Source: a virus. From it: a stretch of DNA of 64,000 bases. The position numbers were made by a program, and so were the translations under genes. Shown here in pieces: positions 32,647 through 50,866 of this stretch. Below the pieces are notes generated by a model. That model was not told the DNA's origin, searched no databases, and saw only the letters and a list, made by a program, of their open reading frames with translations. The stretch spans positions 3,025 through 67,024 of IMG/VR virus record IMGVR_UViG_3300036832_000367; one strand, 5' to 3'. Within the stretch, counting starts at the first letter, position 1; each line of letters opens with the position of its first letter.

Positions 32647-32889
32647 TCATAGCCACGTCTCCACGATTTTCTGGTCGTCTTCCGGCGAGCGCGCGAGACA
32701 TGTCAGGTGCATCTCGAATTCGAGAATGTCGCGCAGCATTTGCAGATCGGGTGCGACGATGATGCTGGACGTTGGTTTCGGACCGTCATCATCGACGTCA
32801 AAAAGTCTTGCGACATACTTGTCTGGGTAATCGGATGGATGATCGTAAATCGTCCACATCCGTAATTTAAATTTATGTTCGTCAATCAT
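32647..32889 (-). CDS. Hypothetical protein
   Basis: WTIYDHPSDYPDKYVAR..RSPEDD..IVETW phage family motif. Confidence 0.7.
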   Translation of the reverse strand: MIDEHKFKLRMWTIYDHPSDYPDKYVARLFDVDDDGPKPTSSIIVAPDLQMLRDILEFEMHLTCLARSPEDDQKIVETWL

Positions 32890-33106
32890 GCTGATCTTGC
32901 ATTCTTTCGCGCGCGCGTAAGGCTTCAAGCGTTGCCAGCACGGCGTTCATCCGGAGCACTCGTTCCTCCGCTTCGTCTGGCCCGATTTTGCCTTTCCGCA
33001 GCAGCCGGTCGTAGACCGTCTTGCGCTGCTCCAACTCGCGCTTCACTTCCGCGATCTGATCCTGCAATGACACGCGATCGATGACGTTCATTTTGATGAC
33101 GTTCAT
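32882..33106 (-). CDS. Hypothetical coiled-coil protein
   Basis: QIAEVKRELEQRKTVY; coupled to neighbouring genes. Confidence 0.7.
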   Translation of the reverse strand: MNVIKMNVIDRVSLQDQIAEVKRELEQRKTVYDRLLRKGKIGPDEAEERVLRMNAVLATLEALRARERMQDQHD

Positions 33107-43490: not shown

Positions 43491-43646
43491 TTACTTGTGG
43501 CAGTGGAACGTGGTTGCGTGCCGATGGCACAGAGAATGCGAGGGACTGGCAGTCGACATGACGATGCCAGCGACCAGTGTCAGCGCGATTATCACGCGCG
43601 CGACTGCCGCGACGAGATGCGGCAGCGCGATGGCTTTGGTCTTCAT
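43491..43646 (-). CDS. Small membrane or secreted peptide
   Basis: SD AACAGGAG; hydrophobic helix. Confidence 0.55.
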   Translation of the reverse strand: MKTKAIALPHLVAAVARVIIALTLVAGIVMSTASPSHSLCHRHATTFHCHK

Positions 43647-43672
43647 GGGTGGTCTCCTGTTTTGGTTTACCT

Positions 43673-43945
43673 CTAGCGAACCTTGTAAAGCTTGCGAACG
43701 CTGAGATACTTTGAAGAAGCAGACATGCCGCCGTGCGATGTTCTTGTTCGCAATTTGATGTGGCACGGTATCCAGCCAGACGACCGTCCGACGATGAAGC
43801 GTTCTTTTTCGCCGGTCATGTCTGAGACCGTTTCAACACGCCAGCCTTCAAGGCCGATTAGTTGTGGTGACAGGCCAGCGTCGCTTCGTAAGGCATCGCG
43901 TTCAGCCGGTGTGAGCACATTCCATTTCTCTTGGGTCATGGTCAT
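43673..43945 (-). CDS. Hypothetical protein
   Basis: LSPQLIGLEGWRVE..RFIVGRSSGW.PCH; SD GAGG. Confidence 0.7.
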   Translation of the reverse strand: MTMTQEKWNVLTPAERDALRSDAGLSPQLIGLEGWRVETVSDMTGEKERFIVGRSSGWIPCHIKLRTRTSHGGMSASSKYLSVRKLYKVR

Positions 43946-44040
43946 GGGTGCGGTGTTTCCTCTCTTGTTGAACGCCGCTTGCAGGCGGGGAAGCGAATGC
44001 TTCGTGCTGCGGCACAGGTCGCGCCGCAGTGTCGAAACAA

Positions 44041-44382
44041 TCAGTGGCCATGGTGCCACGTCTTGCCACCGTCGTGGCTGTGGTGCCCGTGTGCGAGCGC
44101 CTGACGATTGACGGTGCGGCCGGAAAGCGCTTCGGCTTGCGCAATGGCGGCGCGCGCCAGCGCCGATCCGGATGACATGATCTGGCGATAGGCGCACGCG
44201 TCGGTGATGCGCGAGCGGTCTTCAGCGGTCCAGCCCTCGAAAGCAATCGCGCCTTGCGGCCCGATCACCGGCTTGACGGTCTTCGCCGCCAGCAACGTGG
44301 ACAGCCGCGTCACGGCGGTTCGCACTTCCGTCTTGCGTTGCGAGAGTGTCTGGCCCTTTAGCAGTTGGGTGTCACAGGGCAT
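44041..44382 (-). CDS. Hypothetical protein (AAA module partner)
   Basis: MPCDT start; DACAYR motif. Confidence 0.7.
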   Translation of the reverse strand: MPCDTQLLKGQTLSQRKTEVRTAVTRLSTLLAAKTVKPVIGPQGAIAFEGWTAEDRSRITDACAYRQIMSSGSALARAAIAQAEALSGRTVNRQALAHGHHSHDGGKTWHHGH

Positions 44383-44442
44383 TTGGAATCTCCGGTTGGT
44401 AGTGCCGCGAGCCAAGCGTGATTGCTGGCTCGCGGATCGTAA

Positions 44443-45189
44443 TCAGGCGACCTTGCCGGGCGCGAAGTCGAGCACGCGGCCCTCGACCGCAGGCGCGGCG
44501 ATCGGCCGTGCCTCGTCCAGATCGAGAAACGCCGTTCTCGATTCGGTAACCGCGCGGATGGCCCGCAGGTCGATCTCAGTCGCAGCCTGCTCGCCTGCCT
44601 TGACGATCTTACGGGCGCTCGACCGCGCCGCTTCAATCGCCACCTGCACGCGCGCCGCCGCGTCTGGCGACAACATCTGGCCGATCCCCTTGACCCGGTT
44701 GGCGGCCTCGCGGATCACCTTAACGTCGAGATTGCGCAGACCAGCCTCCACCGTGGAAAGCAAGTCAGCCACCTCACTGTTGATCGCCTTGACGGCTTTG
44801 ACGTCATCCGATGCGATGTGTCCGACCAGCGCATAGACCGACAGCCGGGTCAGCGTCGCTTCGGCGTTGAAGTCCGCTACCAGCCTGTCCGCCGCCTTGA
44901 TCGCGGCATCCAGTTCGTCGGCGTTGCGCTCCGGGCAAAGCAGCCCGAACGCTGACTGGGCGCACACGGCGCGGATCAGCGATCCGGCCTTGCCGCGCAC
45001 CTTTTTGCCGCGCTCGAACTCGGCAGCGTCGGCAATGACACGCTCGGTTTCCCAGCGCGCCTCGCTCGATCCATCCGCCGTCAAGTGTTCGGTTTCCAGA
45101 TCGATCTTGCGGTATTGCACGTTGCCGCGTAGCGACGTTTTTAGCGACACGAGCAAGCCCGGTCGCAGTGTTGACGTGCGAAGTGTCAT
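44443..45189 (-). CDS. Hypothetical protein (AAA module partner)
   Basis: SD AACAGGAG; helical; C-terminal RVLDF. Confidence 0.75.
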   Translation of the reverse strand: MTLRTSTLRPGLLVSLKTSLRGNVQYRKIDLETEHLTADGSSEARWETERVIADAAEFERGKKVRGKAGSLIRAVCAQSAFGLLCPERNADELDAAIKAADRLVADFNAEATLTRLSVYALVGHIASDDVKAVKAINSEVADLLSTVEAGLRNLDVKVIREAANRVKGIGQMLSPDAAARVQVAIEAARSSARKIVKAGEQAATEIDLRAIRAVTESRTAFLDLDEARPIAAPAVEGRVLDFAPGKVA

Positions 45190-45215
45190 TAGCGTTCTCC
45201 TGTTTTTGGGGTTTG

Positions 45216-45279
45216 CGCTGTTGCAGACAGCGAGTGCAGGACAGCACTATGAGGCGGTCCCGTAGGACCGCCCTTAGTG
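45216..45279 (-). repeat. Structured intergenic element, copy 1 (divergent, compensatory changes)
   Basis: + strand CGCTG-TTGCAGA-CAGCG AGTGC..GCACTA TGA GGCGGTCC-CGTA-GGACCGCC CT TAGTG. Confidence 0.85.
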
Positions 45280-45287
45280 GTGTCAGA

Positions 45288-46862
45288 TCACAGATCGAGT
45301 GCCCGGACTCTGGGCTTCGCCTGATCGGCGATTTCGGGCGCGCTGGCGGGACGTGCCCGGCCATTGGCCCAAGCGCGCAGCTTCAGCAGGCGCTCCGCAG
45401 CGGTCTTGCTTAACGGCACGACCGTCTTCGCCGCAGCCAGCAGGTCGGTCGCATTGATCTCACGACCGCCGTCCGCGAATGCGGCATACATCGCATCCGG
45501 AACCAGCGCCGCGATTTCACTGCCCGTGAAACCATCGCTGGCATCGACGACCTTGTTCAAGCCCTCGATCTCGCCGCGCTTGAACTGGCGCAACGTGGCC
45601 TTGAGGATTTCCAGCCGCTCGATCCGCGTTGGCAGATCGATCCACCAGATTTCATCGAACCGGCCCTTACGCAACAACTCCGCCGGAAGAACCTCGACAT
45701 CGTTTGCCGTGGCGATCACGAACGCATCGTTTTTGCGTTCCTGCATCCACGACAGCACCGCGCCGAGAGCATCCGACGAAACACCGCCGTCCGCCGATCC
45801 TGAAGTCGCGCCTTGCAGCGCTTTTTCAATCTCGTCGAACCAGACGATGCAGCGCCCCACTGTTTCGATGACCTTGAAAGCCCGTCGCAAATTGCCTTCG
45901 GACTCGCCAACAAACTTAGACTTGATGGCACCAAGATCGACTCGTAACAGCGGCACGCCCCATGCCGTCGATATCGCCTTCGCGGTAAGAGACTTACCGC
46001 AACCGGGAATACCAGCCAGCAGCGCGCCCTTCGGCGCAGGCAGGCCATAAGCGCGGGCCTGCGGGGTGTAGGCACTGGACCGGGAAACCAGCCACGTCTT
46101 GAGGTTTTCCAGCCCGCCGACCGCGTTCAGACCATCGGGCAGCGGATCGAACCACTCAAGAACGCGCTCGCGGGAGATCACGGTCTTCTTTTCCTTAGCG
46201 ACCGCGACCGGGTCGATGGTCCGCGACGTGACCAGCGATTTGCTGTAGCAGGCTTGGGCCTCGACTTGGCTTAGGCCGACCGCAGCATCGATGGCCGCCT
46301 CACGGCGACCGTTCACCATCGTATCTCCCAGATCGTATTGCTCGACCAGTGAGTCCAGCACCGCCGCGATTTCCTCACGGTCGGGCATCGGCATTTCGAT
46401 CACCGTGGCATGTCCCGCCAGTTCAGGCGGAATGTCAGCGGAAGGCGAAAGCACGATGATGGCTTGCGCGCGATCACGCGGGGTGCCGGGCAGCAACCGC
46501 GCGAGGTTTCGTAACTGGCGCATGGTCGTCGCGCCAGCCGGTCCGCTTAACCATGCGGGCAGGTCGCGCATGATCCAGACGCCACGCTCTGGCGTGCCGA
46601 CGACGCGGGATGCGCGCACTCGGATTTCGCCCAGCGCTTCGCCCGGATCGGCGAATTGCGGCTGCGCCTTGCCGCTCATATCGGCGATGCCTTGGCCGAC
46701 GTCCCAAGTATAGGGAACGTAACCGGCCGATGCCGCCGCCTCAAACAGCAGACGCTCGGCGCGTGCTTCCTCGCGTGATGCCACCCAGATGAGCGGGTTT
46801 CGCGCGCGGAGCAGTGCCGAAACGTCGGCGGCCATTTCCTGACCGCGTGTGAGTTTTGACAT
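45288..46862 (-). CDS. AAA+ ATPase (Ycf46/SpoVK-like)
   Basis: Walker A GIPGCGKS, Walker B WFDEIEK, ATAN, LLRKGRFDE; degenerate N-terminal AAA domain. Confidence 0.92.
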   Translation of the reverse strand: MSKLTRGQEMAADVSALLRARNPLIWVASREEARAERLLFEAAASAGYVPYTWDVGQGIADMSGKAQPQFADPGEALGEIRVRASRVVGTPERGVWIMRDLPAWLSGPAGATTMRQLRNLARLLPGTPRDRAQAIIVLSPSADIPPELAGHATVIEMPMPDREEIAAVLDSLVEQYDLGDTMVNGRREAAIDAAVGLSQVEAQACYSKSLVTSRTIDPVAVAKEKKTVISRERVLEWFDPLPDGLNAVGGLENLKTWLVSRSSAYTPQARAYGLPAPKGALLAGIPGCGKSLTAKAISTAWGVPLLRVDLGAIKSKFVGESEGNLRRAFKVIETVGRCIVWFDEIEKALQGATSGSADGGVSSDALGAVLSWMQERKNDAFVIATANDVEVLPAELLRKGRFDEIWWIDLPTRIERLEILKATLRQFKRGEIEGLNKVVDASDGFTGSEIAALVPDAMYAAFADGGREINATDLLAAAKTVVPLSKTAAERLLKLRAWANGRARPASAPEIADQAKPRVRALDL

Positions 46863-46958
46863 GGTGTTACTCCTGTTAGTGCCAGCCGCGCGGGACTAGG
46901 ACGTATCTGTTCCAACCGCTGGCGCTACGCCTCGCTTCGGCGCAGGTGGTCTACAATG

Positions 46959-47026
46959 CGCCGCTTGCAGGCGGCGAATGTTGCGAAGGCAACACTATGA
47001 GACGGCGCAACGCGCCGTCCTTAGTG
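46959..47026 (-). repeat. Structured intergenic element, copy 2
   Basis: 46957-47031 is identical over 75 bp to 48726-48800. Confidence 0.9.
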
Positions 47027-47032
47027 TGGCTG

Positions 47033-47425
47033 TTAGTCTCCGAGATAAAAATACCAGCTACCGTCATCGCCCTTGTAGAGCCGTCCGGAATAGGTGCCGC
47101 GCTCGGCACCTTCCTGATATTCTTCGTAAGAGTCGGCGCTTTCCATTTCGCGGATATCGCCAGCAACAAACTGACAGACGAGACCTTGCAGATCGGCGTT
47201 TGACCAACCGGCTATTTCGTCGTCGGTCCATGCGCCGAAACCTTTGAAAAAGTCGCGCGCGGCATCAAGTGCGGTTTCGTCCGATAGCAGTGGATTGTGT
47301 CGGCCGTACTCGACCGAATTATTCCAAGTGAACGAACCCGCGTTCTGGCCAAGTTCAGCGATGCTGCCGGACAACATCGGCATTTCATCGGAAGCTTTGA
47401 CCATATGCGTGACATCTAATTCCAT
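47033..47425 (-). CDS. Hypothetical acidic protein
   Basis: SD GGGAGGG; flanked by element copies. Confidence 0.75.
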   Translation of the reverse strand: MELDVTHMVKASDEMPMLSGSIAELGQNAGSFTWNNSVEYGRHNPLLSDETALDAARDFFKGFGAWTDDEIAGWSNADLQGLVCQFVAGDIREMESADSYEEYQEGAERGTYSGRLYKGDDGSWYFYLGD

Positions 47426-47444
47426 GGTGGTGTGTCCCTCCCTT

Positions 47445-47493
47445 CTAGTGTTTTGAAACAACACTATGAGACGGCGTGACCGCCGTCCTTAGT
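47445..47493 (-). repeat. Structured intergenic element, copy 3 (lacks the CTGCAA hairpin)
   Basis: CACTATGAGACGGCG-TGAC-CGCCGTCCTTAGT. Confidence 0.9.
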
Positions 47494-47495
47494 AT

Positions 47496-47771
47496 TCATC
47501 GCTTCGATTTTGCTATTTTGCAGTCTTCGCAAGTGCAGCGCTGGGCCAACTTGAATTGGCGCTTAACTTCCCTGACGGAAGACTCGTGGATGATGTGCAT
47601 TCCACCTGCACGATCTACTTCCGTGTTTGCCCAACCCTTCTTGAGATATACCCAATAGGACCAAGGCTTATCGTCGCCCTCTGAATAATCCTTTTCCAGC
47701 CAGCCTTCATCAAACTTGTCGCTGTAGCTGGATAGAAAGGCTTTCAGTTTTTCTGGAAGCGGTTTTTCCAT
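47496..47771 (-). CDS. Hypothetical protein
   Basis: SD AACAGGAG; C-terminal CTCEDC. Confidence 0.75.
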   Translation of the reverse strand: MEKPLPEKLKAFLSSYSDKFDEGWLEKDYSEGDDKPWSYWVYLKKGWANTEVDRAGGMHIIHESSVREVKRQFKLAQRCTCEDCKIAKSKR

Positions 47772-47791
47772 TTTGGTGTTTACTCCTGTTG

Positions 47792-47858
47792 CGCCGCTTG
47801 CAGGCGGCGAGTGTGCATTGGCAACACTATGAGACGGCGCAACGCGCCGTCCTTAGTG
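47792..47858 (-). repeat. Structured intergenic element, copy 4
   Basis: Full three-hairpin consensus. Confidence 0.9.
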
Positions 47859-47862
47859 TGGC

Positions 47863-48045
47863 TCAGTCTTCGTCTATCGGCTCATCGTGCCAATAATTGC
47901 CATCGGTCAGAACGTCTGGTCGATAGCCAGCGAGTTTCTTCCGCTCGCACTTCTCGCAGGTGTAGCAAAGGAAAATCCCGCGCGCGTCGTACTGCGGCCC
48001 CGGAAAGTATCCAGAACCGCAAGGACAATGTTGCAGGCGTGCCAT
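47863..48045 (-). CDS. Small Zn-binding protein
   Basis: CPCGSG..DARGIFLCYTCEKC. Confidence 0.75.
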   Translation of the reverse strand: MARLQHCPCGSGYFPGPQYDARGIFLCYTCEKCERKKLAGYRPDVLTDGNYWHDEPIDED

Positions 48046-48064
48046 GGTGGTGTGTCCCTCCCTT

Positions 48065-48250
48065 CTAGTGTTGGCGCTCTACCTTGGTTTCGAGCAGTTC
48101 CATTTCCAGCTTTTCGCCGTTGTGTTGCTTCTGTAGTTTCTTGAGAAGCGGCAAAACCTTGGAAGCTGGCGCTGTTGCGAAAACCGTTTTGCTGACCGAG
48201 CCCACGATCCGATAGTAGGTGGGCTTGTCGCGTTTATGAATCATGGTCAT
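48065..48250 (-). CDS. Hypothetical protein
   Basis: Operonic small ORF. Confidence 0.55.
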   Translation of the reverse strand: MTMIHKRDKPTYYRIVGSVSKTVFATAPASKVLPLLKKLQKQHNGEKLEMELLETKVERQH

Positions 48251-48464
48251 TCTGTTTGGTCTCCGGTACGGCGCGCAACGTGCGGCCCTCGTATGAATAG
48301 TTGACCGGATCATCGGACGGCGCGGCGCGATATTCCTTCACCGCCATCCAGCGCATCATGAGATCGTGCGCGTTTTCGTGCGCTTCCTTCTCGGTCGCAA
48401 AGCGCAAGCCGTTGCCGCACCACTTGCCGGTGTTGTCGGCGATGACTTCAGGTTTCCAAGACAT
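48234..48464 (-). CDS. Hypothetical protein (paralogue of 53724..53927)
   Basis: MSWKPEVIAD.TGKW..LRF..EA..DL..RW.AV. Confidence 0.75.
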   Translation of the reverse strand: MSWKPEVIADNTGKWCGNGLRFATEKEAHENAHDLMMRWMAVKEYRAAPSDDPVNYSYEGRTLRAVPETKQNDHDS

Positions 48465-48481
48465 TACTAATTCCCCTTTTG

Positions 48482-48703
48482 TTAGAGTAGGCCGAGCACG
48501 ATTGCGCCCAGAAATGCCAGCGCGATATAAGCCGTCACATGGTAGGCAGTTGCGCTGCTGGTTTTGCTGCCCCGCGCCCATGCCCGCTCATAGGCAAGGC
48601 AAAGCGTGGTCTTGGTGACGACGTCGATCCCGGCGACGCTTAACGCCATGGTGTCGATAGCGCCAAGCACTCGCCAAGTCAGCGACTTCAGATGGCCGTA
48701 CAT
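48482..48703 (-). CDS. DUF2061-like membrane protein, internally deleted copy
   Basis: WRVLGAIDTM..TK..YERAW; paralogue of 49069..49269. Confidence 0.6.
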   Translation of the reverse strand: MYGHLKSLTWRVLGAIDTMALSVAGIDVVTKTTLCLAYERAWARGSKTSSATAYHVTAYIALAFLGAIVLGLL

Positions 48704-48727
48704 TTTTACTTCCAAGTTGTGGTGTTG

Positions 48728-48795
48728 CGCCGCTTGCAGGCGGCGAATGTTGCGAAGGCAACACTATGAGACGGCGCAACGCGCCGTCCTTAGTG
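48728..48795 (-). repeat. Structured intergenic element, copy 5
   Basis: Identical to copy 2. Confidence 0.9.
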
Positions 48796-48800
48796 TGGCT

Positions 48801-49055
48801 TTAGGAAATTGCCAGCGCGATTGCTTCCAATTCGCCGATGACTTCCTTGAGTTTAGCAAGGCGCGCTTCGTGCTGTTTCATTGCGGCTCCGATAGCGTCG
48901 CCGTCTTGCACGTAATAGTCGCGGCCGTTTGGATAGGCCGCAGCAAGCTTGCTTCCGGCCGCATGTAACGCATCGATTGCATCACAGTAGCCATCAAGCA
49001 GCGATTGCTTGGACGTGCCATTCGAATGAATGGTCGGGATCATAAGTTTAGTCAT
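48801..49055 (-). CDS. Hypothetical protein
   Basis: PTIHSNGTS..PNGRDYY motif; SD GGAG. Confidence 0.75.
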   Translation of the reverse strand: MTKLMIPTIHSNGTSKQSLLDGYCDAIDALHAAGSKLAAAYPNGRDYYVQDGDAIGAAMKQHEARLAKLKEVIGELEAIALAIS

Positions 49056-49068
49056 GGTGGCTCCGTAT

Positions 49069-49269
49069 TTAGCTGGTGCTCTTGCTGCCCCACGCCCACG
49101 CCCGCTCATGGGCATAGTAAAGCGCGGTCTTGGTGAAGAACTCGATACCCACGACGCCCAACGCCATGGTCACGCTGTTGGTGACAATCAGCGACAGCAG
49201 CATGGTGTCGATAGCGCCGAGGACTCGCCAAGAAAGAGCCTTGACGATCGACTTCAGATGGCCGTGCAT
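49069..49269 (-). CDS. DUF2061-family membrane protein
   Basis: SIVKALSWRVLGAIDT..IEFFTKTALYYAHERAW. Confidence 0.8.
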   Translation of the reverse strand: MHGHLKSIVKALSWRVLGAIDTMLLSLIVTNSVTMALGVVGIEFFTKTALYYAHERAWAWGSKSTS

Positions 49270-49455
49270 TAGTTTAGCTCCGTTGTGATGCAGCGCCGCT
49301 TGCAGGCGGCGTGATGCGAGAAGCGCATCGTTGGGCGGCAATTTATCTTGCCGCCCCGTCGATAGGCTTACACTTGGCCCGGCTTTGGAGTTGCCGGGTT
49401 GCGCTGCAAGTGGCCCTTGCAGAGGCAGAGGCGTTTTGAAGCACGCCTCCATGGA

Positions 49456-49505
49456 TGTTGTTGCATTGGCAACACTATGAGACGGCGTGACCGCCGTCCT
49501 TAGTG
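49456..49505 (-). repeat. Structured intergenic element, copy 6 (its CTGCAA hairpin displaced to 49294-49311)
   Basis: CACTATGAGACGGCG-TGAC-CGCCGTCCTTAGTG. Confidence 0.88.
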
Positions 49506-49508
49506 GTG

Positions 49509-49868
49509 TCAGTCCATACGGGAGTCGGCATAGGCGTTGATGCCCAGTTCATCCTTCAGGATGGACGCCATTTTCCCGGCGTGCCGTTCCTTCCGTTCGA
49601 GGCTCTGGCCGTGCGCGCTGATCCAGATATCAACGCCGCCCGTGTAAGCCTTATGGGCCAGCTTGTTCTTGACCAGCCACTTGGCAAACGAGGAATTGCC
49701 CGGCCGCACCCTTACCCAAGCGAAACCGCACACGCCCTCCGGCACGAACCATCGCTCGGTCGACGATGAAACGACCATCGCGCTCGGCTTATGCGCTTCG
49801 GCTGCCGCGTAACCTTCGCGGTTGGCCCGATCAAATACGGCGGCGAACTTCGCGTAGTCTTTCGACAT
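49509..49868 (-). CDS. Conserved phage hypothetical protein
   Basis: EGVCGFAWV..FAKWL..QSLERKE..SRMD motif. Confidence 0.8.
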   Translation of the reverse strand: MSKDYAKFAAVFDRANREGYAAAEAHKPSAMVVSSSTERWFVPEGVCGFAWVRVRPGNSSFAKWLVKNKLAHKAYTGGVDIWISAHGQSLERKERHAGKMASILKDELGINAYADSRMD

Positions 49869-49888
49869 TTTCAAACTCCGTGGTGCCA

Positions 49889-49953
49889 CGCCGCTTGCAG
49901 GCGGCGAGTGTTCGATAGAACACTATGAGACGGCGGAGACCGCCGTCCTTAGT
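49889..49953 (-). repeat. Structured intergenic element, copy 7
   Basis: Full consensus; first copy in the transcript. Confidence 0.9.
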
Positions 49954-50197
49954 ATTCACCATTTTCGATTTTGAATTTTGCTCGTGATCTCTCGTCGAGC
50001 GACCCACGGCTCCAATGTCTCAGGGCTTCGTCGTGCTGGTCTTCCGGCCGTTACCGATTCGCGGGAGGGATCATTTTTGATTTCGACCTCTGGAGTCTCG
50101 GGCTCTACCCTTGCCGCGTTGTTTTGTTTCGGAGTGTCGCGAGCACTCCCGCAGGTCTTTCTTCCGTTCCGATCTCCTTTCCTTTCCGTTCATCCTC

Positions 50198-50225
50198 ACT
50201 ATAGGCCTTTTGTCACCTATGTCAA
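50198..50225 (-). promoter_or_regulatory. Leftward sigma70-type promoter
   Basis: TTGACA-N16-TATAGT on the - strand; spacer contains GTGACAAAAGGC. Confidence 0.7.
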
Positions 50226-50300
50226 GCGGCTTTATATCATTGATTATATTGCAATATTTGCCCATTTCCGGCTTGGCTTGTGGAATCGCGCGAATAGGCG

Positions 50301-50329
50301 TTGTGCCTATGTGACAAAAGGCTTATCTT
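50301..50329 (+). promoter_or_regulatory. Rightward sigma70-type promoter
   Basis: TTGTGC-N17-TATCTT; spacer contains the same GTGACAAAAGGC. Confidence 0.6.
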
Positions 50330-50350
50330 GATGGTGAAGGGAAAACCAAA

Positions 50351-50866
50351 ATGGAAACCAGCATGAGCCTGCACGAAATCCTGACCAGCAACGTCGAGAA
50401 CTGGGCGCGGCTCGGTCACCCGTCGCTGCTCGAACGATTCGTGCTGCGCAACGGCAAGCCCTACGCGCCCGGACCGCGCAAGGGTCGCAAGGGTCCGGAG
50501 AGGCAGTGCTACATGAATGCCGCGAAGGTCGTGATGTGCGATGCTGACGCGGTGGCTTATGTCGAGGGCTTCGTCATAAATCCCGACCTGCCGATTCCGA
50601 TTCATCACGCTTGGGTCAGTTACGACGGCGAGACGGCGATGGACCCGACGCTGGACAGCGCGAACCGCGAATATTTCGGCGTCAGCTTTACCCGCAAGGA
50701 ATTGGTCCGCGAGCTACGCAAGACAAAAATTTATGGATTGCTCGATACCGGTTGCGGGTTGAACGCCGACCTGATGTTCCGGCGCGATCCAGAACTCAAG
50801 GCGATCTGCGAGGGCGTCAAGATTGATCCGAGATTCGCCAAAGCATTAAACAGGGGGGCAATGTGA
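50351..50866 (+). CDS. Hypothetical protein, transglutaminase/papain-like
   Basis: QCYMNA..YVEG..HHAW..DPT (Cys-His-Asp pattern). Confidence 0.7.
   Translation: METSMSLHEILTSNVENWARLGHPSLLERFVLRNGKPYAPGPRKGRKGPERQCYMNAAKVVMCDADAVAYVEGFVINPDLPIPIHHAWVSYDGETAMDPTLDSANREYFGVSFTRKELVRELRKTKIYGLLDTGCGLNADLMFRRDPELKAICEGVKIDPRFAKALNRGAM

What the first reader, a model, noticed from the sequence alone, without database searches (positions are those of the whole stretch)
45216..49953. Seven copies of a covarying multi-hairpin element punctuate the early operon into a gene-cassette-like array
Seen directly: a motif recurs at 45216, 46959, 47445, 47792, 48728, 49456 and 49889, with lone third hairpins at 43973 and 49294. 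Read on the transcribed (-) strand it is CACUA-AG-[GACGGCG loop CGCCGUC]-UCA-UAGUG(UU) loop (AA)CACU-[CGCCGC CUGCAA GCGGCG]. Six copies start within a few nt of the upstream stop codon, and most end just before the next SD. Stems vary while pairing is kept (copy 1 has GGCGGUCC/GGACCGCC and CGCUG/CAGCG), but the asymmetric AG/UCA internal loop and the CUGCA loop are invariant. In every copy the AGUG(UU) strand can pair upstream (CACU) or downstream (AACACU/GCACU/GCAACA), i.e. two mutually exclusive folds. Inference: a functional structured nucleic acid that I do not recognise. Options: an RNA-processing site that cuts the polycistron into single-gene mRNAs (analogous to RNase III sites in T7/SPO1 early regions), a self-cleaving or switching RNA, an antitermination site, or an ssDNA recombination site that shuffles one-gene cassettes.
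Basis: partly seen in the sequence, partly recalled or inferred. Interest (0 to 1): 0.9.

Follow-up and report, generated by a model that had tools for sequence, protein, structure and literature searches.

The report
Stop-codon hairpin repeats between phage genes
A conserved folded RNA signal sits at the stop codon of early genes in an uncultured soil phage and its relatives, most likely marking where the long early message is cut or protected, much like the RNase III sites of phage T7.

Summary
Seven co-oriented copies of a multi-hairpin element lie between genes of one leftward operon (45216-49962, minus strand). The pattern gave 7 matches against 0 expected.

The window is an IMG/VR soil siphophage record of 67 kb. 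A covariance model found 64 gene-strand copies, 60 of them unique, in 12 other viral records and 17 further metagenome contigs.

Three helices covary. Hairpin 1 is long: a 9-bp lower stem with a conserved mismatch, an A(G)/(U)CA internal loop, and an 8-10-bp upper stem. Hairpin 2 reuses the 3' arm of hairpin 1. Hairpin 3 is GC-rich with a CUUGCA-type loop.

The upstream gene's stop codon lies inside the lower stem in 39 of 58 copies. It lies within 4 nt of the element start in 55 of 58.

Rfam has no match. The element carries no promoter and no U-tract terminator. Four of five records lack an integrase.

The anatomy matches the intergenic hairpins of the T7 early region. My best reading is an intercistronic mRNA processing or stability module, probably an RNase III substrate. 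Recombination among copies would be a side effect. Cleavage is inferred, not shown.

I class it as a new RNA family of a known kind.

The parts
49889..49962 (-). Copy 1. Hairpin 1 at 49912-49962, hairpins 2+3 at 49887-49924. It lies in the 5' leader of the operon. A short stretch before it resembles the 3' end of gene 47496-47771.
   Evidence: R1 57.2 bits; R2 38.8 bits; repeat family D9
49456..49513 (-). Copy 2. Hairpins 1 and 2 directly after the UGA stop of gene 49868-49509. Its third hairpin is displaced to 49294-49311.
   Evidence: R1 55.1 bits; stop at offset +2; sequence
49294..49311 (-). Lone third hairpin CGCCGC-CUGCAA-GCGGCG, upstream of the SD of the DUF2061 gene that starts near 49268.
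   Evidence: Exact match; sequence
48728..48803 (-). Copy 3, complete (hairpins 1-3), after the UAA stop of gene 49055-48801. Identical over 75 nt to copy 6.
   Evidence: R1 59.9 bits; R2 32.9 bits; family D2, 100%
47792..47866 (-). Copy 4, complete, after the UGA stop of gene 48045-47863.
   Evidence: R1 58.9 bits; R2 25.2 bits
47445..47502 (-). Copy 5. Hairpins 1 and 2 only, after the UGA stop of gene 47771-47496. It is followed directly by the 31-nt leader that is duplicated at 48042-48072.
   Evidence: R1 49.9 bits; family D10; fold
46959..47034 (-). Copy 6, complete, after the UAA stop of gene 47425-47033. It lies 121 nt before the AAA-ATPase start.
   Evidence: R1 59.6 bits; R2 32.9 bits
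45216..45287 (-). Copy 7, complete, with compensated stems, after the UGA stop of the AAA ATPase gene 46862-45288.
   Evidence: R1 56.6 bits; R2 27.1 bits
43973..43990 (-). Lone third hairpin with 1 mismatch. It follows a non-family hairpin after the stop of gene 44382-44041.
   Evidence: sequence
50198..50225 (-). The only sigma-70-like promoter found in 43500-50400: TTGACA-16-TATAGT. It presumably drives the whole operon.
   Evidence: 11 of 12 consensus matches

Best explanation
The element is a cis-acting RNA module in the intercistronic spacers of a long early phage transcript.

Hairpin 1 is about 18 bp long. It has a 9-bp lower stem that contains the upstream gene's stop codon and one conserved mismatch, a small asymmetric internal loop, an 8-10-bp GC-rich upper stem and a 3-6-nt apical loop.

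I infer that hairpin 1 is a processing and stability signal of the T7 early RNase III type. A host double-strand-specific endonuclease would nick it at the internal loop. The upstream cistron would then end in the upper hairpin, which acts as a barrier to 3' exonucleases.

The freed 3' arm (UAGUGUUCA) would then re-pair with the downstream copy of the 5' arm (GAACACU). This forms hairpin 2 next to hairpin 3, at or near the new 5' end of the following cistron, ahead of its Shine-Dalgarno site.

Shown here: the structures, their covariation, their position at stop codons, and their spread across diverged phages.

Inferred: the cleavage, the enzyme, and the refolding after cleavage.

Because many similar copies lie in one genome, they also serve as sites of homologous recombination. 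That gives the array its cassette-like look.
For: Structure and covariation:
- On 26 copies, 93.3% of cells pair and 11 of 17 pairs show changes on both sides. None of 500 shuffles reached the observed values. Slid controls pair at 28-57%.
- RNAalifold independently predicts the same fold.
- On 60 unique copies, lower-stem positions 1-5 and 7-9 pair in 53-60 of 60. Position 6 pairs in only 25 of 60.
- Hairpins 2 and 3: 90.7% of cells pair, 10 of 13 pairs show double changes, and 0 of 500 shuffles reach this. That alignment was fitted to the model.

Folding strand:
- G-U cells outnumber A-C cells 28 to 10 in the lower stem, which points to folding of the gene strand.
- Reverse-strand model scores are 11-24 bits against 50-60 forward.

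Position:
- The stop codon is at model positions 5-7 in 39 of 58 copies and within -4..+4 in 55 of 58.
- The next start lies about 16-57 nt after hairpin 1 in most copies.
- There is one promoter for the region and none at the elements.

Geometry:
- The upper stem is 8-10 bp in 58 of 60 copies, and an internal loop is always kept.
- The T7 gene 0.4/0.5 intergenic hairpin starts with the UGA stop. It has a lower stem, an internal loop and an upper stem of about 10 bp.
- Passages in PMC1540722 and PMC3867540 state that RNase III substrates typically span two helical turns. They also state that internal loops limit cleavage to one strand and leave protective 3' hairpins.

Energetics:
- The long-hairpin state is predicted lower in energy in 58 of 60 copies, by a mean of 3.7 kcal/mol. 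Hairpin 2 forms when the 5' arm is blocked.

Conservation:
- The core is kept in phages whose capsid proteins are only 41-48% identical to the window's.
Against: - No RNA data exist for this phage, so no cleavage, RNA end or enzyme is shown.
- RNase III has no known positive sequence determinants (passage in PMC1540722). The near-invariant YACUA..UAGUG and the loop bases are therefore not explained by it alone, and may point to another protein.
- At the orthologous F2|F3 junction, two relatives carry plain 9-bp or 12-bp hairpins, which are too short for RNase III. The generic function may therefore be only a 3'-exonuclease barrier.
- The conserved CUUGCA-type loop of hairpin 3 has no role in this model.
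- Modules of hairpins 2+3 also occur without hairpin 1.
- The host is unknown.
Confidence: 0.5

Rival explanations
1. Hairpin 1 is the binding site of a sequence-specific RNA-binding protein, phage or host. That protein would control translation, decay or elongation at each cistron boundary. Cleavage by RNase III plays no part.
For: The YACUA/UAGUG stem, the A(G)/(U)CA internal loop and the hairpin 3 loop are conserved far beyond what base pairing needs. RNase III is reported to lack positive sequence determinants (passage in PMC1540722).
Against: No protein family is shared by all five element-bearing records compared. The best candidate is a 74-aa helical protein found in 4 of 5, with no Pfam match. 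T7's own intergenic hairpins also share sequence with each other, so sequence conservation does not demand a special protein.
Confidence: 0.2
2. The repeats persist mainly as DNA-level recombination boundaries, in the manner of PeSLs. Homologous exchange between copies moves, duplicates or deletes the genes between them. The RNA structure is secondary.
For: - Copies flank F1, F2 and F3 in six records, and the order is F1-F3-F2 in one record against F1-F2-F3 in five.
- Copies within a record are more alike than copies between records: 0.77 against 0.70, p = 6e-6. In 4 of 5 records the best paralogue beats the best orthologue.
- The window holds duplicated DUF2061 genes and an identical 31-nt leader.
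- RecE/RecT-like genes lie in the same operon.
Against: - Recombination needs sequence identity, not compensatory base changes. It also needs no fixed register with the stop codon and no kept internal loop.
- No close pair of genomes was available to show an indel that ends exactly at a copy.
- DNA contigs from three soil runs showed no joints at the elements. The contigs merely break there.
Confidence: 0.15
3. The element is a translation-sensing switch. A ribosome terminating at the stop codon inside the lower stem melts it, the 3' arm re-pairs downstream as hairpin 2, and this changes expression of the next gene (translational coupling).
For: The stop codon lies inside the lower stem in 39 of 58 copies. 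Both alternative pairings covary. Blocking the 5' arm shifts the fold to hairpin 2 at a mean cost of 3.7 kcal/mol.
Against: Predicted accessibility of the SD did not change when the 5' arm was blocked: mean 0.45 against 0.44, Wilcoxon p = 0.30, on 51 of 60 copies. Seven of 60 copies lack hairpin 2 by my reading of the folds.
Confidence: 0.1
4. The element is a single-stranded DNA recombination site of the integron attC kind, a small selfish palindromic insertion (MITE or REP-like) without function, or a self-cleaving ribozyme.
For: It is a hairpin with unpaired bases, a variable apical part and one or a few genes per unit. Its arms CACTA..TAGTG resemble terminal inverted repeats.
Against: - No tyrosine recombinase is found in 4 of 5 records, and none next to the array.
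- By reading, there are no RYYYAAC/GTTRRRY cores (consensus recalled from memory) and no target duplications.
- Copies at orthologous junctions have diverged by compensatory change, which argues for selection on structure.
- There is no Rfam ribozyme match even at E up to 5.
- The predicted ground state is a plain hairpin.
Confidence: 0.05

Closest known systems
RNase III processing signals of the phage T7 early region (R0.5, R1, R1.1, R1.3)
   Same: - Hairpins in the gaps between cistrons of one long early transcript.
- A lower stem, an internal loop and an upper stem of about 10 bp.
- The gene 0.4/0.5 hairpin begins with the UGA stop codon, as here.
- The sites within one phage share sequence.
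- R0.5 and R1.1 are named as T7 early RNase III sites in PMC3643576 (passage).
   Different: - No sequence homology. R1 was not run on T7; the judgement comes from comparing the folds by eye.
- The element here has a second hairpin that reuses the 3' arm and a third hairpin with a conserved loop.
- It is spread over many diverged siphophages.
- Cleavage is untested.
- The T7 site coordinates are recalled from memory. The RefSeq record does not annotate them.
PeSL cassettes of T4-type phages (PMC2839356, search listing only; PMC4122927, abstract and outline)
   Same: Short conserved stem-loop-bearing repeats between small early genes. They are implicated in the shuffling of those genes.
   Different: PeSLs are composite promoter plus terminator motifs. 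No promoter-like site and no U-tract terminator lies at these elements on the gene strand.
REP/BIME sequences and Neisseria Correia/NEMIS elements (recalled from memory, not read here)
   Same: Intergenic palindromic repeats that are co-transcribed with genes and act on mRNA stability. NEMIS hairpins are reported to be RNase III targets.
   Different: Those are chromosomal, high-copy elements, and some are mobile. Here the host is unknown, and the one genome-collection scan was swamped by chance hits.
17-bp dyad repeats of Cluster O mycobacteriophages (PMC4351075, passages)
   Same: - Hairpin 2 (TGTTC-N3-5-GAACA, often ..CCGAACA) resembles TGTTCGGNNNCCGAACA.
- Both lie in a leftward operon that holds a homologous AAA ATPase, 49.5% identical.
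- In Catdawg, a long hairpin after the ATPase stop shares its 3' arm with the repeat.
   Different: - The Cluster O repeats are invariant and a third lie inside genes. Their authors predict that dimeric DNA-binding proteins bind them.
- Hairpin 2 here varies with compensatory changes.
- R1 finds no hairpin 1 in the 13.6-kb Catdawg stretch.
Plastid intercistronic expression element (PMC2230500, abstract in search listing)
   Same: A short intercistronic element that yields stable monocistronic mRNAs from an operon.
   Different: An unrelated sequence and an organellar, protein-mediated system. The analogy is one of function only.

Membership tests
T7-type RNase III processing signal | Hairpin of roughly two helical turns of dsRNA | tested here: met
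   The lower stem is 9 bp with one mismatch. The upper stem is 8-10 bp in 58 of 60 copies. This is at least as long as the predicted T7 0.4/0.5 hairpin, but it sits at the short end of 'two turns'.
T7-type RNase III processing signal | Internal loop or bulge at the target site that limits cleavage to one strand | tested here: met
   An asymmetric internal loop is kept in 60 of 60 copies. It is A/CA in 42 and A/CG in 10; the others are 2x2 to 3x2.
T7-type RNase III processing signal | Intercistronic position in a long polycistronic early transcript | tested here: met
   Stop codons lie within 4 nt of the element start in 55 of 58 copies. There is a single promoter at 50225-50198.
T7-type RNase III processing signal | RNase III-dependent cleavage at the site | not testable with these tools
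   No RNA run holds the stretch.
T7-type RNase III processing signal | No antideterminant base pairs in the proximal and distal boxes | not tested
   The rules are defined for the E. coli enzyme, and the host is unknown.
PeSL (promoter-early stem-loop) | Early promoter inside the repeat | tested here: not met
   No sigma-70-like site lies at any of the 7 copies.
PeSL (promoter-early stem-loop) | Indels or replacements between close relatives that end at the repeat | tested here: inconclusive
   A gene-order swap is flanked by copies, but no closely related genome pair was available.
Integron attC site | Integron integrase (tyrosine recombinase) with the array | tested here: not met
   PF00589 is absent from G000, G001, G003 and G005, with one match in G004. 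The neighbouring ORFs have no such domain.
Integron attC site | Conserved R''/R' core sites | tested here: not met
   Neither strand of the aligned copies shows them. The consensus is recalled from memory.
Intrinsic terminator | GC-rich hairpin followed by a U tract on the transcribed strand | tested here: not met
   No minus-strand terminator-like site lies at any copy. Two plus-strand matches are reverse images of copies 1 and 5.
Any Rfam 15 family | Score at or near a family's gathering threshold | tested here: not met
   There were 0 matches in the window at gathering. At E up to 5 the region 43900-50050 gave 3 weak matches, none aligned to the element on its own strand. One plus-strand match of 20.1 bits touches the hairpin 3 of copy 6.
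Cluster O 17-bp repeat | Invariant TGTTCGGNNNCCGAACA | tested here: not met
   Hairpin 2 arms vary (UUC/GAA, UAC/GUA, GUC/GAU, UUGC/GCAA and others).
REP/MITE-type repeat | High copy number in a host chromosome, target duplications or a cognate transposase | not testable with these tools
   The host is unknown.

The most novel reading that the evidence does not exclude
The element is a self-contained 'cistron separator' switch that spreads among otherwise diverged soil phages. The stop codon is built into an endonuclease-sensitive hairpin. After cleavage, or after a terminating ribosome passes, the hairpin's 3' arm flips to a second pairing that caps the 5' end of the next message. One roughly 75-nt module would then supply the 3' end of one mRNA and the 5' end of the next, and would double as a recombination joint for swapping early genes.
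Probability: 0.2. Interest if true: 0.75.

Novelty: new variant of a known kind. Interest (0 to 1): 0.58.

Why it matters
If the reading holds, this is an undescribed structured RNA family with about 60 distinct copies in uncultured soil phages. It would show that the T7 strategy of cutting a long early transcript into stable single-gene messages recurs in unrelated siphophages, with an added refolding arm.

It would also supply a compact natural part for insulating genes in synthetic operons. It could explain how small early genes are exchanged at fixed joints.

It may shed light on the unexplained 17-bp repeats of Cluster O mycobacteriophages.

The element is easy to test in vitro, because it needs only a transcript of about 100 nt and RNase III.

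Tried and rejected
Known RNA families: there were no matches at gathering and none at the element at E up to 5.

Promoter readings (sigma-70, sigma-54, ECF, T7-like, MotA box): I considered these by eye. The scan found no promoter-like site at any copy. The spacing from the hairpin 3 loop to the SD varies from about 15 to 24 nt.

Intrinsic terminator: there is no U tract.

Integron reading: there is no integrase in 4 of 5 records.

Phage-encoded RNase III: none in 5 of 5 records.

Three-frame stop cassette: the motif's TAA and TAG complete all three frames in only 15 of 50 copies.

SD sequestration coupled to upstream translation: I found no effect. Nine of 60 copies were dropped because my pattern found no SD, start and ORF of at least 40 codons.

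K-turn, loop E, CsrA-site, kissing-loop, and hairpin 3 loop to internal loop pairing: I checked these by eye and sequences. None is consistent across copies.

Cultured relatives: blastn of the region hit only a 234-nt piece of AAA-ATPase genes. A relative's array gave no match. The capsid protein has at most 30% identity to cultured phages.

R1 on a 13.6-kb Catdawg stretch: no hit.

The genome-contig scan used too loose a pattern. I therefore cannot say whether bacterial genomes carry the element.

Sequencing runs: no RNA holder is listed. DNA contigs of three soil runs laid on 43500-50400 break at the repeats and show no joint at an element.

Earlier notes of this scan by sequence: none.

Literature word searches for the motif returned only unrelated miRNA and primer hits. 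A topic search on intercistronic phage stem-loops found nothing describing this element. I therefore found it in print nowhere within those two searches. Supplementary files were not consulted.

A trans-acting protein shared by all element-bearing records was not found.

Full report
**What is there.**
Reading 43800-50200 on the minus strand shows a row of short genes separated by spacers of 60-190 nt that hold a recurring sequence. The pattern ACTAAGGRCGG..CCGYCTCATAGTG occurs 7 times, always on the minus strand, against 0.00 expected. The GC hairpin CGCCGC-CUGCAA-GCGGCG occurs at six places. Repeat finding shows the same families, and two copies are identical over 75 nt.

The window is part of an IMG/VR virus record of 67,024 bp, rated 100% complete. 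The record holds no further copy. It is a siphophage:
- fused protease-capsid, portal, tape measure, tail fibres and an amidase lie on the plus strand;
- a long leftward operon holds an AAA ATPase, RecE-like and RecT-like proteins and many small ORFs.

The only sigma-70-like promoter in 43500-50400 is TTGACA-16-TATAGT at 50225-50198 on the minus strand, upstream of the first copy.

**Anatomy.**
On the RNA-sense strand, each full copy reads as follows:
- the stop codon;
- 5' arm A (for example UGAUCACUA);
- AG;
- a GC-rich upper stem and loop;
- UCA;
- 3' arm B (UAGUGUUCA);
- a short loop;
- A' (GAACACU);
- hairpin 3, with a CUUGCA or CUGCAA loop;
- 15-25 nt;
- the SD;
- the start codon.

B can pair with A, giving a long hairpin 1. 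B can instead pair with A', giving hairpin 2.

In the window, copy 5 lacks hairpin 3. Copy 2 has about 150 nt of other hairpins inserted before its hairpin 3.

**Relatives.**
- A strict pattern scan of IMG/VR gave 9 loci in 8 records.
- A looser scan gave 25 loci. By reading, 14 of them hold true copies (L008-L016, L018, L023, L024, L029, L032) and 11 are AT-rich chance hits without a stem.
- I built a covariance model, R1, from 26 copies. It found exactly the 7 window copies at 49.9-59.9 bits. Its other hits were their reverse-strand images and two unrelated hits of about 11 bits.
- All 5 whole records searched had matches. On the gene strand these were 6 copies in G001, 6 in its near-twin G002, 6 in G003, 3 in G004 and 1 in G005, always clustered within about 6 kb.
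- Over 11 stored loci R1 gave 48 matches. Of these, 32 were on the gene strand and 16 were weaker reverse images.
- A metagenome scan gave 22 loci, 3 of which are the same records as G001, G004 and G005. Of the 19 others, 17 hold true copies: 25 gene-strand matches and 6 reverse images.
- Of the 64 gene-strand copies, 60 are unique over the element plus 40 nt.

The window shares few proteins with these records. Capsid identity to G004 and G003 is 41-48% and portal identity is 60%. It shares almost nothing with G001 and G005. The element core is therefore far better conserved than the genes around it.

**Covariation.**
For hairpin 1 on 26 copies:
- 93.3% of cells pair, and 11 of 17 pairs show changes on both sides;
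- the covariation score is 0.336 against 0.110 in shuffles, and 0 of 500 shuffles reach it;
- slid partners pair at only 28-57%.

RNAalifold predicts the same fold by itself.

On all 60 copies, lower-stem positions 1-5 pair in 58-60 and positions 7-9 in 53-57. Position 6 pairs in only 25, so it is a conserved weak spot. G-U cells outnumber A-C cells 28 to 10, which fits folding of the gene strand.

The upper stem is 8-10 bp in 58 of 60 copies, and the apical loop is 3-6 nt. An asymmetric internal loop is present in all 60, although its bases vary in 8 divergent copies.

For hairpins 2 and 3 I built a second model, R2, from the 38 of 60 copies with a simple two-hairpin tail. On its 44 distinct matches:
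- 90.7% of cells pair, and 10 of 13 pairs have double changes;
- 0 of 500 shuffles reach the observed values.
This alignment is fitted to the model, so it leans toward the structure.

Both partners of arm B are thus supported.

**Position.**
Among 58 copies with an upstream frame of at least 40 codons, the stop codon starts at model position 5 in 39. There, UGA pairs with UCA. It starts within -4..+4 of the model start in 55. The stop is TGA in 47 and TAA in 11. Downstream, a start with an SD follows within about 16-57 nt in most copies. No copy lies inside a gene.

**Comparison with T7.**
I folded the T7 intergenic gaps that, from memory, hold the early RNase III sites. The record does not annotate them. 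The gene 0.4/0.5 gap folds into a hairpin that begins with the UGA stop of gene 0.4. It has a 6-bp lower stem, an internal loop and an upper stem of about 10 bp. The other gaps hold similar hairpins that share sequence with each other. This is the anatomy of the element here.

The papers I consulted say the following:
- E. coli RNase III substrates typically span two helical turns (passages in PMC1540722 and PMC3867540).
- Internal loops or bulges limit cleavage to one phosphodiester and leave 3' hairpins that protect against exonucleases (same passages).
- Five such signals process the roughly 7000-nt T7 early precursor (same passages).
- R0.5 and R1.1 are RNase III sites of the T7 early region (passage in PMC3643576).

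**Energetics and the second pairing.**
With the lower stem enforced, the predicted energy is lower than with the 5' arm blocked in 58 of 60 copies, by a mean of 3.7 kcal/mol. With the 5' arm blocked, arm B folds into hairpin 2, next to hairpin 3. This suggests that the long hairpin is the ground state of the intact transcript. Hairpin 2 would then be the fold adopted once arm A is removed by cleavage or covered by a ribosome.

A simple coupling model is not supported. In that model the switch would open the next SD, but mean SD accessibility was 0.45 against 0.44, p = 0.30, n = 51.

**Recombination signals.**
In six records the elements flank a MoxR-like AAA_5 gene (F1), a DUF3150 gene (F2) and a DUF2201 VWA gene (F3). 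The order is F1-F2-F3 in five records and F1-F3-F2 in L013, with copies at the joints.

At the F2|F3 joint the five F1-F2-F3 records differ:
- G003 and L010 have full copies;
- G004 has a diverged copy that R1 missed;
- G001 has an unrelated 12-bp hairpin followed by a hairpin 2-like and a hairpin 3 module;
- L011 has only a plain 9-bp hairpin.
So a GC hairpin right after the stop is the common denominator, and the family features are an elaboration of it.

Copies within a record are more alike than copies between records: 0.77 against 0.70, p = 6e-6. In 4 of 5 records the closest paralogue beats the closest orthologue.

These facts fit recombination among copies. Recombination alone does not explain the compensatory changes or the fixed register with the stop codon.

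**Exclusions.**
- Rfam has no match.
- No promoter and no gene-strand U-tract terminator lies at the copies.
- No tyrosine recombinase is found in 4 of 5 records.
- No RNase III gene is found in any of the five records.
- There is no three-frame-stop design.
- No RNA run holds the stretch. DNA contigs only break at the repeats.

**A side link.**
The AAA ATPase is 49.5% identical to that of Cluster O mycobacteriophages. Their unexplained 17-bp repeat TGTTCGGNNNCCGAACA (PMC4351075, passages) resembles hairpin 2. In Catdawg, a long hairpin after the ATPase stop shares its 3' arm with that repeat. R1 finds no hairpin 1 there.

**Verdict.**
This is a real, widespread, covariation-supported RNA element that is not in Rfam. 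It was not found in print by my two searches. It most likely works as an intercistronic processing or stability signal of the T7 RNase III kind, with an extra refolding arm. Recombination among the copies gives the array a cassette-like character. The cleavage step is inferred.

Noticed in passing
window 49311-49456 (minus strand): About 150 nt of hairpin-rich sequence sits between hairpin 2 and the displaced hairpin 3 of copy 2. It includes short stems with CUGCAAG and CUUGCAG loop-like motifs. It could be a small structured RNA or the debris of further copies.
   Followed up: no
window 44385-44442 and 43990-44040 (minus strand): Non-family GC hairpins follow the stop codons of genes 45189-44443 and 44382-44041. 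The second is followed by a lone hairpin 3. A hairpin after the stop seems to be the rule in this operon even without the family motif.
   Followed up: partly
window 47422-47452 and 48042-48072: An identical 31-nt leader, including SD and start, precedes two different genes. At 48072 it is fused to a gene end whose TAG stop lies in CACTAG. DUF2061 paralogues lie at 48482-48703 and 49069-49268.
   Followed up: partly
L187 (Mycobacterium phage Catdawg) 7645-7730 and 8240-8300: The 17-bp Cluster O repeat TGTTCGGAAACCGAACA sits just after stop codons. After the AAA ATPase, it overlaps the 3' arm of a long hairpin whose 5' arm carries CCGAACA. This is the same three-segment layout as arms A, B and A' here.
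   Followed up: partly
L183 7792-7828, L184 9996-10034, L185 10966-11004, L214 1359-1396, L220 1311-1346/2660-2696/3859-3894: Modules of hairpin 2 plus hairpin 3 occur without a hairpin 1 in front of genes of related records. The 3'-trailer and 5'-leader parts are therefore separable.
   Followed up: partly
window 49929-49947 and 47470-47487 (plus strand): The reverse complements of copies 1 and 5 score as terminator-like sites on the non-coding strand: a hairpin followed by CTTAGTATTC. They could stop antisense transcription.
   Followed up: no
window 32882-33106 (minus strand): A 74-aa helical protein with no Pfam match has relatives in 4 of the 5 element-bearing records compared. No function is assigned.
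   Followed up: partly
window 43500-50400: Public soil-run contigs of three studies end exactly at the element copies (for example at 46986/47002, 47451/47459 and 48755/48771). This shows that the repeats fragment short-read assemblies of this phage.
   Followed up: yes
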